From the human T2T-CHM13v2.0 reference genome, Homo sapiens, in NCBI RefSeq assembly GCF_009914755.1, contig NC_060933.1: a stretch of 64,000 nucleotides of DNA; one strand, 5' to 3'. Below, piece by piece: positions 2,262 through 11,300 of the stretch (positions are counted from its first letter, which is position 1; every line of letters starts with the position of its first letter). The notes beneath the pieces are model-generated. The model saw nothing but the letters and a program-made list of their open reading frames with translations, had not been told where the DNA came from and made no database searches. Made by a program: the position numbers and the translations under genes.

Positions 2262-3397
2262 GATAAAAAGAGAATTTTGAAAACGACAAGAGAAAAGCAT
2301 CAAGTGACATATAAGGAAATCCCCATCACACTAACAGCAGAGTTCTCAGAAGAAACATTATAGTCCAGGAAACAATGGAATGATAAAGAGCCAAAAGAAG
2401 TAAAGTACCAGACAAGAATACTAGACCCAGTAAAGCTATCCTTCAGAAATCAAGGAGAAATCAATCTTTTTTAGTGAAACAAAAACTGAGGGAATTCATC
2501 ACCACTAAACTAGCCGTATAAGAAATGCTTAAGCGATTCCTACATCTAGAAATGAAAGAATAATATCTACCCTCATGAAAAAACACAAAAGTATAAAACT
2601 CAGTGGTAGAGCAGATGTACAAATACAAAAGAGAAAGGAATCAAATATTATTACTACTAAAGATCACCAAACTGCAAAGATAAACAGTAAGAGAGGAAAA
2701 AAGAAACAAAGGATATATAAGACAATAAGAAAACACTTAACAAAAAGACAGGAGTAAATCCTCACATATCAATAACAACCTTGATTGTAAACCATTTAAA
2801 TTCAGAATTAGAAGATATAGACTGTCTAAATGTATAAAAAAAAGACCAAACTGTATTCTGCCTCCACAAACTCACTTTACCTGTAAAAACACATATAGAC
2901 TAAAAGTGAGGGGATGGAAAAAGATATTCTATACAAATGAAAACCACAAGTAAACAGGAATATCTATACTTACATCAGATAAAATAGACCTTAAGTCAAA
3001 AAAAGACAAAAAGAGACAAAGAAGGTTATTATGTAATGATAAATGTATCAATTCATCAAGAGGATATAACAATTGTAAATATGCATGTACCCAACACCAG
3101 AACATCCAGATATATAAAACAAATATTACTAAAGCTAAAGGGAAAGATAGACCCCAGTACAATAGTAGTTGAGAACTTCAACATCCCACTTTCAGGATTG
3201 GACCAGTAATCTAGATAGAAAATTAACAAACATTGGACTGAACCCGCAATATAGAATAGATGAACCTAACGAATATTTTATCCAACAGCTGCAGAACACA
3301 CATTCTTCTCACCAGGACATGGAACATTCTCAAGGCAAAACCATATGTTAGGCAACAAAATAAATCTCAACAAATTTTTAAAAATCAAAGCAATATC

Positions 3398-8364: not shown

Positions 8365-11300
8365 TCAAAGCAATATCAAGTATCTTTTCAGACCAAAATG
8401 GAATAAAACTAGAAGTCAATAACAAGAGTAACTTTGGAAACTGTACGTAAAAATTAAGTAACATGCTCTTGAACAACCGCTGGGTCGATTAAATAAATTA
8501 AGAAAGAAAATGGTTTCTTGAATCAACTAAAAGTAAAATTATAGCATAGCAAAATCTATGGGATACAGCAAAAGCAGTACTAACAGAGAATTTTATGGAA
8601 ATAAATACCTACATCAAAAACTAGACAGATTTAAGATAAACAACCTAAAAATACATCTCAAGGAACTAGAAAAGCAAGAACAAACCAAACCCAAAATTAG
8701 TAGAAGAAAAAAAATAATAAAGATTAGAGCAAAACTAAAGAAAATACAGACTGAAAAAAATATGCATAAGATGAATAAAATGAAAAGTTATTTTTTGAAA
8801 GATAAATAAAATCAATAAACCATTAACTAGATTAAGAAAAAAAGAAAGAAAATCTAAATAAAATCAGAAACAAAAAAGGAGACATCACAACTGATTTCAC
8901 AGAGATGTAAAGGATCATTAGAGGCAATATGCCAACAAATTGAAAAGCCTAGAGGAAATGGATAAATTCCTGAACACATATAACCCACCAACACTGAACC
9001 CAGAAGAAATAGAAAAGGGAAACAGAGCAATCATGAGTAACAAAATTGAATCAGCAATAAAAAGTCTCCCAAAAAAGAAAAGCCCAGGACCGGATGGCTT
9101 CACTGCTAAATACTACCAAATATTTAAAGAAAAACTAACATTTACATCCATGTAGTATGGGAAATTAAAAAGAAAAACTAACACCAATTCTTCTCAAACT
9201 GTTCTAATAAAGTTGAGAGGGGTAATTTTTCCTAACTTATCCTATGAGGCCAGCATAATCCTGATACCAAAACCAGACAAGGACACAGCAACAACAAAAA
9301 AAGAAAACTCTAGTGAACATAGATGAAAAAATTCAAACAAAATACTAGCAAACTAAATCTAACAGGACATTTAAAAGATTATACACATGATCAAGTGGGA
9401 TTTATCCCAGGGATGCAATGATGGTTCAACATACACAAATCAATAAATGTGATACATCACATCAAGAGAATGAAGGACAAAAAACATATGATCATCTCAA
9501 TAGATGCAGAAAAGGCATTGGATAAAATTACACATTTCCTCATGATGAAAACTCTCAAAAACTTAGGTAGAAAAAACATACCTCAACAAAATAAAGACCA
9601 TATAAAACAGCTAACATCATATTGAATGAGGAAAATAAAGTTTTCCTCTAAGAACTGGAACAAGACAAGAATGTCCACTTCTACCACTCGCATTCAACAT
9701 AGTACTGGATGTCCTAGCCAGAGAAATTAAGCAAGAGAAAGAAAGGGCATTCACATTGGAAAAGAGTAGGTCAAACTGTACCTCTTTGTAGATGACATAA
9801 TCTTATATATAGAAAAACCTAAAGACCTCACCAAAACACTCTTAGAACTGAAAGAGGAATTCAGTAAAATTTCAAAATACAAAAATCAGTAGCATTTTTA
9901 TATACCAATAACTAGCTGAAAATGGAACAAAGAAAGCAATAACTACAACAAAATAAAAATCTCATGTTCATTAATAGGAAGAACTGATATTATGAAATGA
10001 CCGTACTGCCCAAAGTAATCTACAGATTTAATGCGATCTCTTTCAAAATACCAATGACATTCTTCACAGAAATAGGAAAAACAATCCTGAAATTCATATT
10101 GAACCACAAAAGACTCCAAATAGCCAATCCTGAGCATAAAGAAAAAGTCGGAAGTATTATACCAGAAATACTAGATTTCAAAATATTCTACAAAGCTAAA
10201 ATAACCAAAACACATGGTACTGGCATGAAAACAGACACATAGACTGATGGAACAGAATAGAAAAGCCAGAAAGAAATTTATACATTTATAGCCAACTGAT
10301 TGATAAAGGCACCGTGAACACACACTGGGGAATGGCAGGCTTTTCAATAAATGGTGCTGAGAAAACTGGATATCCACATGCAAAAGAGTGAGACTATACC
10401 CTTATTTATCGCCATAACAGAAATTAACTAAAAATGGATTTAAGACTTAAATGTAAGGCTTAAAACAATAAAACTACTGGAAGAAAATATGAGAGAAATG
10501 CTTCATGACATTGGGCAAAGATTTTATAGGTACAACTTCAAAAACACAGGCAAAAAAGCAAAAATAGACAAATTGGATTATTTCAGACTAAAAAACCTTA
10601 AGCACAACAAAGGAAACAATTAACACACTGAGAGACAACCTGTAGAATGGGAGAAAATATTTGTAAGCTATTAACCTGATGAGGGATTAATATCCAGAAT
10701 ATTAAAGGAACTCAAACAATTCAATAGCAAGAAAAATAATCTGGTTTAAAATGGGCAAAGAATCTGAATAAATATTTCTCAGGTGAAAATATCTCTCAAA
10801 TGGCCAAAAAGTATATTAAAAATGCTCAACATCACTAATCAGGGAAATGTGAATCAAAACCACAACGAGATACCATCTCAACCCAGTTAGAAAGGCTATT
10901 ATTTAAAAAGACAAAAAAATAACAAATTCTGGCAAGGATGCAGAGAAAGGAGAACTCTTACACATTGTTGGTGTCAATACAAATTAGTACAGCTATTTTG
11001 GTCAATAGTATGGAGGTTCCTGAAAAAAACTAAAGATAGAACTATCATATGATCCAGCAATCCCACTACTAGGTACTTAGCCAAAGAAAAGGAAATTGAC
11101 ATATCAAAGAGCTATCTGTCCCCCTTGATATTTATTGAAGCACTAGTCACAGTAGCCAAGCTATGTAATCAACCTAGGTGTCCAAAAACAGATGAATGGT
11201 TAAGTAAAACGTGGTCTGTACACACAGTGGAATACTATTCAGCCATTAAAAAAGAATAAAATCCTGTCATTTGAGGCAACATGAATGAGTCTGTAGGGCA

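What the first reader, a model, noticed from the sequence alone, without database searches (positions are those of the whole stretch)
3380..8377. L1 3' transduction captured intact: L1PA6 plus ~730 bp of donor flank, polyadenylated at a captured LTR's poly(A) site
Seen: the host L1MA ORF2 is broken at a TTTT/AAAAA endonuclease site. The 18-bp TSD AAAAATCAAAGCAATATC (3380-3397, 8360-8377) encloses the L1PA together with 7628-8357, which holds an old L1-like scrap and a MER68/MER21-like LTR. The LTR stops ~25 nt after its AATAAA (8327-8332) and runs into an A-run, lacking U5, as expected if the donor L1 transcript read through its own weak signal and used the LTR's poly(A) site. The last 5 nt of the TSD (ATATC) also match L1 at the 5' junction (microhomology). 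The transduced tag should identify the ancient source L1 locus and any sibling insertions.
Basis: partly seen in the sequence, partly recalled or inferred. Interest (0 to 1): 0.7.

Follow-up and report, generated by a model that had tools for sequence, protein, structure and literature searches.

The report
Old L1 transduction whose parent vanished
A jumping gene (LINE-1) on human chromosome 9 carries about 720 bases copied from one spot on chromosome 11 where no matching parent LINE-1 sits today, most likely an ordinary read-through copy made some 25-30 million years ago by a parent that was later lost; a known kind of event, but a clean old example.

Summary
Observation confirmed. An exact 18-bp TSD (3380-3397, 8360-8377) encloses a 5'-truncated L1PA6-like element plus about 720 bp that maps to one place, C11:103,133,667-103,134,375 (minus strand, 90%), most likely a DYNC2H1 intron. 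Direction is settled: the chr11 LTR is whole (532 bp, 5-bp TSD on both sides); the chr9 copy stops 21 donor bases after the first AATAAA and lacks the last 67 nt. The prediction of a parent L1PA6 at the donor fails: nothing L1PA-like abuts the tag. A full-length L1 lies 5.6 kb upstream on the same strand but is a decoy: 96-97% to its own nearest copies, 12.7% from the chr9 L1 at the 3' end, with a DYNC2H1 exon between. Tag divergence (7.3%) fits the chr9 L1's age class. No sibling found. Best reading: a 'parentless' 3' transduction from a source allele that likely never fixed, a known class. The poly(A) tail is nearly gone (2 A outside the TSD). Unexplained: a near-perfect 19-bp tandem duplication exactly at the donor junction, possibly slippage, possibly the paired-TSD scar of an excised L1. 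Other primate genomes could not be searched.

The parts
3380..3397 (+). 5' copy of the 18-bp TSD; preceded by TT (TT|AAAAA site); last 5 nt double as microhomology with L1
3398..7620 (+). 5'-truncated L1PA6-like element (name recalled), starting about 1.87 kb into the element near the end of ORF1; no frame open beyond 189 codons
   Evidence: nearest copies 90-92% at the 3' end, 89-90% at the 5' end
7621..7644 (+). decayed tail of the source L1 and ambiguous junction zone, with a T7 run that is probably donor-derived
   Evidence: 0 of 29 relatives have T>=5 in the first 25 nt of tail
7636..7882 (+). transduced non-LTR DNA, an old L1M-like 3' UTR scrap (name recalled); matches C11:103,134,375-103,134,132 (minus)
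   Evidence: p=0.086 over 233 sites; 77% match to a C1 copy
7878..7882 (+). copied 5' TSD of the LTR (one mismatch to the donor's 5-bp TSD); no 3' partner in the window
7883..8356 (+). transduced MER21/MER68-like solo LTR (name recalled), lacking its last 67 nt; donor C11:103,134,131-103,133,600
   Evidence: p=0.067 to the donor; donor p=0.29 to 28 other family copies
8327..8332 (+). AATAAA; first canonical hexamer after the tag start at the donor; present at the aligned place in 19 of 28 other family copies
8357..8359 (+). remnant of the second poly(A) tail (T plus two A), continuing into the five A of the TSD
8360..8377 (+). 3' copy of the 18-bp TSD
2741..3379 (+). host old L1 (L1MA-like, name recalled), left part, broken in the 5' part of ORF2
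   Evidence: p=0.28 to the young chr11 L1 over 2741-3229
8378..11364 (+). host old L1, right part, collinear with the left part once one TSD copy and the insert are removed
   Evidence: p=0.23 over 8388-9912

Best explanation
The chr9 insert is one L1 insertion between an 18-bp TSD whose last 720 bp are a copy of a single chr11 locus, and it most likely arose by 3' transduction from a full-length L1PA6-like source that likely sat at the tag's 5' edge and was likely never fixed, so today's chr11 site shows no parent. Steps. (1) Inferred: a source L1 inserted at an A4 run at C11:103,134,370-390, antisense in what is likely a DYNC2H1 intron. (2) Inferred from the end position: its transcript passed its own weak signal and was cut about 21 nt after the first downstream AATAAA, which belongs to an older solo LTR. 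(3) Shown by TSD, TT|AAAAA site and 5' truncation with 5-nt microhomology: L1-type insertion into an old L1 on chr9. (4) Inferred: the filled chr11 allele was lost while the chr9 daughter persisted. (5) Shown by sequence age: a different, younger full-length L1 later landed 5.6 kb upstream on the same strand and now mimics a parent.
For: One match only over the whole tag (90%, query 9-729 of 730); the other 39 rows are LTR-family matches, 38 of them at 68-73% (40 of 705 candidates scored); the non-LTR part gave 3 of 3 candidates: self, chr11, one 77% old-L1 piece. Donor LTR complete with TSD on both sides, window copy cut 67 nt short. End lies 21 nt after the first AATAAA; 4-5% of donor-strand positions lie 10-30 nt after one. 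Start lies at a TT|AAAA; 1.9% of nearby positions lie within 5 nt of one. Tag p=0.073 (51 of 695, +-0.019), non-CpG 0.061; chr9 L1 against its 29 nearest copies 0.087 (0.078-0.093), non-CpG 0.073: same age class. Both copies drifted similarly (mean 15.9 against 13.0 private changes per outgroup copy, 28 outgroups). Decoy L1: 96-97% to its 39 nearest copies at the 3' end and 93-97% at the ORF1 end; p=0.127 to the chr9 L1 3' end, outside the range of the 29 relatives; differs from them at 34 near-fixed columns where the chr9 L1 agrees, 0 shared departures. Parentless transductions are common in print: 17 of 18 and 24 of 27 in dogs (PMC7980453, PMC13141329, passages); class 1 donors in primates (PMC4862182, passages).
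Against: The source was never seen; its loss is inferred from one human genome. The second poly(A) tail is only 2 A outside the TSD. The 5' junction is ambiguous by about 20 nt; the TT|AAAA there is the seam of a 19-bp tandem duplication, so if that duplication is younger than the event the site would be the weaker CC|AAAA and the 1.9% figure does not apply. Continuity of the old L1M scrap across the donor junction was not shown: upstream-only score 34.9 against shuffles 35.1 +- 5.8, 225 of 500 as high. The 29 relatives were picked for likeness to the chr9 L1, which biases the column test; over the whole 4,188 aligned sites chr9 L1 and decoy differ by only 0.094 (0.06-0.11 in ORF2), just at the top of the tag's interval. 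The TSD shares 12 of 13 nt with donor sequence 27 nt past the copied end (37 of 4,999 random windows score as high, post hoc), which this reading treats as chance.
Confidence: 0.72

Rival explanations
1. Two-step or chimeric origin with no L1 ever at the chr11 junction: an LTR-polyadenylated antisense transcript was retrocopied in trans into the A-rich end of an L1 already on chr9, or reverse transcriptase switched from that RNA to an L1 poly(A) tail at the A4 run.
For: No L1 at the donor junction. The L1 tail and the tag end both read TT then A-run, as an A-only inner TSD would. Tag divergence (0.073) is slightly below the L1's (0.087).
Against: [quoted passage not shown] The divergence interval (0.054-0.093) includes the L1's value.
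Confidence: 0.12
2. Same transduction, but the source L1 was fixed and later cut out. Either recombination between its TSDs left a clean site, or an unusual excision left both TSD copies, seen now as the 19-bp tandem duplication at the junction.
For: Near-perfect 19-bp duplication at C11:103,134,390-103,134,352, TSD-sized, starting with A4, exactly at the junction; 6 such in 180.5 kb by a strict rule, 0.5% of positions by a loose one, 6 of 428 TT|AAAA sites. The window holds one unit after the L1 tail, as a 3' TSD would give.
Against: The rule was set after seeing the feature. A third, older partial unit follows, so slippage explains the duplication; a similar 19-bp tandem lies on C13 in unrelated context (found by searching with this one). 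The window's T7 fits a donor T-run downstream of the source, not a TSD pair. I know no mechanism that removes an L1 and keeps both TSDs; one literature search gave one review, not read.
Confidence: 0.1
3. Transduction from a lost source, but primed inside a longer transcript by pairing of the nicked chr9 strand with the LTR's 3' part, followed by loss of 27 nt; the poly(A) signal would be incidental.
For: 12 of 13 nt shared between TSD and donor 27 nt past the copied end, 37 of 4,999 random windows; almost no poly(A) tail.
Against: Needs a separate 27-nt loss that ends exactly at the canonical distance from the first AATAAA; short tails occur in 7 of 29 copies of this age; post hoc.
Confidence: 0.04
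4. The full-length L1 5.6 kb upstream on chr11 is the parent, and the gap was spliced out or deleted.
For: Same strand, full length (C11:103,146,073 to 103,139,963), 88.7% over all of 3393-7620.
Against: It is about half as old as the tag (3-4% to its nearest copies against 7.3%); 3' end p=0.127, last 188 sites 0.18; 34 diagnostic columns. No GT follows its tail directly and no AG precedes the tag (read by eye). The gap holds several AATAAA and a DYNC2H1 exon, so it is not a later insertion.
Confidence: 0.02

Closest known systems
L1 partnered 3' transduction (Goodier 2000, Pickeral 2000, Szak 2003: seen only as reference entries; PMC6425141, PMC12350158, PMC9311842: passages)
   Same: L1 body, tail, unique flank, second tail and TSD in that order; end 10-40 nt after a poly(A) signal; length within the 8-997 bp range of PMC9311842; interchromosomal.
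   Different: Old (about 27 Myr if L1PA6, age from PMC5860796 passage) rather than polymorphic L1HS; second tail nearly eroded; signal supplied by a solo LTR (not reported in the passages I saw, but any downstream signal is expected to serve).
'Parentless' 3' transductions (PMC7980453, PMC13141329; class 1 and 2 donors of PMC4862182; passages)
   Same: Tag maps to a locus with no adjacent L1; explained by a source allele that segregated apart from the daughter.
   Different: Those are recent dimorphic insertions whose parent may still segregate; here the parent is likely long extinct, and a younger full-length L1 nearby acts as a decoy.
CHM13 reference transduction catalogue (Hoyt et al., bioRxiv 10.1101/2021.07.12.451456; passages)
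   Same: Same genome and event type; 183 top-confidence L1 3' events; 231 of 700 events had a parent of another subfamily.
   Different: This case shows one way a subfamily mismatch can arise: a later, unrelated L1 near an empty donor.
Orphan transduction / processed retrocopy in trans
   Same: Unique DNA with poly(A) signal and TSD, no parent L1 at the donor.
   Different: Here 4.2 kb of L1 lies inside the same TSD, 5' of the tag.

Membership tests
L1 3' transduction | One TSD encloses L1 and extra 3' DNA | tested here: met
   18 of 18 nt, unique in window; host collinear across empty site
L1 3' transduction | Endonuclease-type target site | tested here: met
   TT|AAAAA at 3378-3384
L1 3' transduction | Extra DNA maps to a unique donor that is the original | tested here: met
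   single 90% match; donor LTR whole with both TSD copies
L1 3' transduction | Poly(A) signal 10-40 nt before the end | tested here: met
   first AATAAA, 21 nt at donor, 24 nt in window
L1 3' transduction | Second poly(A) tail after the tag | tested here: inconclusive
   2 A outside the TSD; 7 of 29 same-age copies as short
L1 3' transduction | L1 and tag of the same age | tested here: met
   0.073 +- 0.019 against 0.087; coarse
L1 3' transduction with extant parent | Matching full-length L1 directly upstream of the donor tag | tested here: not met
   none adjacent; nearest is 5.6 kb off, younger, other subfamily
Parentless 3' transduction | No adjacent L1, donor junction at an endonuclease-type site | tested here: inconclusive
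   no adjacent L1: met; TT|AAAA or CC|AAAA at the junction, confounded by the tandem duplication
Parentless 3' transduction | Filled donor allele seen in some individual or species | not testable with these tools
   no other primate genome held
L1 3' transduction | Empty chr9 site in an outgroup species | not testable with these tools
   no relatives held
L1PA6 subfamily; MER21/MER68 LTR | Best match to the library consensus | not testable with these tools
   no repeat library; names recalled; 90-92% to nearest copies fits an L1 about twice as old as the decoy

The most novel reading that the evidence does not exclude
The 19-bp tandem duplication at the chr11 junction is the paired target-site duplication of the source L1, left behind when the element was cut out exactly at both ends. 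The chr9 daughter would then be the proof that an L1 once lay between the two units: a dated, cut-and-leave-a-footprint removal of a LINE-1, a route of retrotransposon loss with no established mechanism, findable genome-wide by pairing parentless transduction tags with TSD-sized tandem duplications at their donor junctions.
Probability: 0.06. Interest if true: 0.75.

Novelty: new member of a known kind. Interest (0 to 1): 0.33.

Why it matters
As it stands: modest. It is a fossil record of an active L1 allele that is gone from the reference, with insertion point, strand and rough age recoverable; old fixed tags of this kind could count how often active parents were lost against how often daughters fixed. 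It is also a practical warning: a method that looks for a full-length L1 within about 10 kb of the tag (a 10-kb buffer is described in PMC12350158, passage) would likely pick the wrong, younger parent here. No gene or exon was moved, and no function is implied. It would matter much more if the duplication at the donor proved to be an excision scar.

Tried and rejected
Upstream chr11 L1 as parent: rejected. Gap as a later insertion at the donor: rejected, it holds an exon matching DYNC2H1 (E 4e-47) and three more exon-like frames read by eye (not searched). Mosaic or converted parent: no 500-site block stands out beyond ORF2 conservation (0.06-0.11). Independent LTR insertion on chr9: rejected, no 3' TSD, flank copied with it. 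Segmental duplication: rejected, homology stops at both tag ends within the 20 kb compared. Siblings: none (40 of 705 candidates scored; 3 of 3; 3 of 3; 40 of 298); the search skips common words, so short or much diverged siblings may be missed. C13:22,188,092-131 match: a 40-nt look-alike of the tandem, with no L1PA end beside it in the 801 bases read. Continuity of the old L1M scrap across the donor junction: inconclusive. Tags of the 29 nearest L1 copies were not traced. Literature: seven answered searches listed nothing on this locus; none of the 15 rows shown, of 182 papers, held DYNC2H1; one search returned mostly unrelated papers. Szak 2003, Pickeral 2000 and two other papers were not held, and the Hoyt supplement is closed, so prior listing of this locus is not excluded. 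Earlier scan findings were not available.

Full report
Observation. The 18-mer at 3380-3397 recurs exactly at 8360-8377, extends in neither direction and occurs nowhere else in the window. It follows TT, giving a TT|AAAAA site. Between the copies lie a 5'-truncated L1 (3398-7620), a decayed tail and about 720 bp of other DNA. With the insert and one TSD copy removed, the host L1 aligns to another L1 in one ungapped block across the junction, and it is far older (p=0.23-0.28 to a young L1). The last five bases of the TSD equal the five L1 bases before the truncation point. The names L1PA6, L1MA, L1ME and MER21/MER68 are recalled; no repeat library was at hand.

Donor. Searching the genome with 7628-8357 gave, besides the self match, one match over the whole length, C11:103,133,667-103,134,375 on the minus strand at 90%, and 39 LTR-family rows, 38 of them at 68-73% (40 of 705 candidates scored). 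The non-LTR part alone gave self, chr11 and one 77% piece. At chr11 the LTR is 532 bp with the same 5-bp TSD on both sides; the window carries the 5' TSD copy with one mismatch and lacks the last 67 nt. So chr11 is the original. The copy ends 21 donor bases after the first AATAAA downstream of the tag start; that hexamer sits at the aligned place in 19 of 28 other family copies, and 4-5% of donor positions lie 10-30 nt after such a hexamer. An exon 5 kb away on the plus strand matches DYNC2H1 (E 4e-47); exon-like frames on both sides of the tag were read by eye, so the donor is likely a DYNC2H1 intron, antisense.

No parent. Nothing L1PA-like abuts the tag at chr11. A full-length L1 on the same strand spans C11:103,146,073-103,139,963, 5.6 kb upstream, 88.7% by blast over the whole chr9 L1. 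It is not the parent. Its 39 nearest copies are 96-97% identical at the 3' end and 93-97% at the ORF1 end, whereas the chr9 L1's nearest copies are 90-92% and 89-90%, and the tag has drifted 7.3% from its donor (51 of 695 sites, +-1.9%). An element about 3-4% from its kin is younger than a copy 7% from its source. Over the last 720 bases it differs from the chr9 L1 by 0.127, against 0.078-0.093 for the 29 relatives, and departs from them at 34 near-fixed columns where the chr9 L1 agrees, with no shared departure. Against this: the relatives were chosen for likeness to the chr9 L1, and the whole-length difference is only 0.094 because ORF2 is conserved. The gap holds a coding exon, so it is not a later insertion, and no splice sites mark its ends (by eye).

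Age. Tag divergence 0.073 (non-CpG 0.061) and chr9 L1 to nearest copies 0.087 (non-CpG 0.073) fall in the same class. Both tag copies drifted at similar rates (15.9 and 13.0 private changes on average over 28 outgroup copies). L1PA6 amplified about 27 million years ago (PMC5860796, passage). The test is coarse and does not exclude a somewhat later second step.

Mechanism. Shown: L1-type insertion on chr9, direction chr11 to chr9, end at the LTR's hexamer, absence of an adjacent parent, later arrival of the decoy. Inferred: a source L1 stood at the A4 run where homology begins, was read through to the LTR signal, and its allele was lost. The start lies at a TT|AAAA (1.9% of nearby positions are within 5 nt of one), but this needs care. 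The seam is part of a 19-bp tandem duplication, and the window's T7 just before the tag has no equal in 29 of 29 relatives' tails, so it probably came from the donor; the source may have sat one unit further up, at CC|AAAA. The junction is fixed only to about 20 nt. I could not show that the old L1M scrap runs on across the donor junction (225 of 500 shuffles as high).

Loose ends. The duplication is rare (6 in 180.5 kb strict; 0.5% of positions loose; 6 of 428 TT|AAAA sites), TSD-sized and exactly at the junction. It could be the two TSD copies of an excised source, but the rule was post hoc, a third partial unit invites slippage, and a look-alike exists on C13. Second, the TSD shares 12 of 13 nt with the donor 27 nt past the copied end (37 of 4,999 random windows); internal priming would need a further 27-nt loss, so I treat it as chance. 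No sibling was found, within the limits of a search that scores only its best candidates.

Comparison. [quoted passage not shown] Parentless donors are described: 17 of 18 and 24 of 27 in dogs (PMC7980453; PMC13141329; passages), and primate donors without a full-length L1, including unrelated L1 nearby (PMC4862182, passage). My searches (listings only) did not show it.

Verdict. New member of a known kind; interest 0.33. The scar reading (probability 0.06) would deserve 0.75 and is settled by primate orthologues.

Noticed in passing
G000:C11:103,139,963-103,146,073 (L031, L032, L037; minus): Full-length younger L1 (L1PA3/4-like, name recalled) antisense in what is likely DYNC2H1, 288 bp from the exon matched, with an A-rich TSD; two L1 insertions of different age within 6 kb of one gene on the same strand, if the lost source is counted.
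   Followed up: yes
G000:C11:103,134,352-103,134,390: Near-perfect 19-bp tandem duplication around an 8-bp palindrome at the donor junction; unexplained.
   Followed up: partly
window 1172-1415: Short minus-strand 3' end of a young L1PA (88% to the chr11 L1) inserted in the 5' part of the same host L1, after a T-run.
   Followed up: no
window 1-11364: The host looks like a near full-length old L1 that has taken at least three later insertions (young L1 end at 1172, Alu at about 1966-2264, this transduction) and an (AT)n(AC)n microsatellite at 1545-1593.
   Followed up: no
window 5010-5035: Small internal duplication in the chr9 L1's ORF2 region (a repeat of about 14 nt, read by eye); a private marker for orthologue searches.
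   Followed up: no
L021, L022, L029: In 3 of 28 LTR family copies an Alu-like sequence begins 12-15 nt after the LTR's AATAAA, i.e. at nearly the same spot; possible insertion preference, or selection bias of the search.
   Followed up: no
L009 and L030 (C11:102.66 Mb, C23:132.40 Mb): Two LTR copies share a distinct 3' end and even flanking bases, suggesting a separate subfamily or a duplication.
   Followed up: no
G000:C13:22,188,092-22,188,131 (L068): A 19-bp tandem duplication very like the donor's, in unrelated context; not a sibling.
   Followed up: yes
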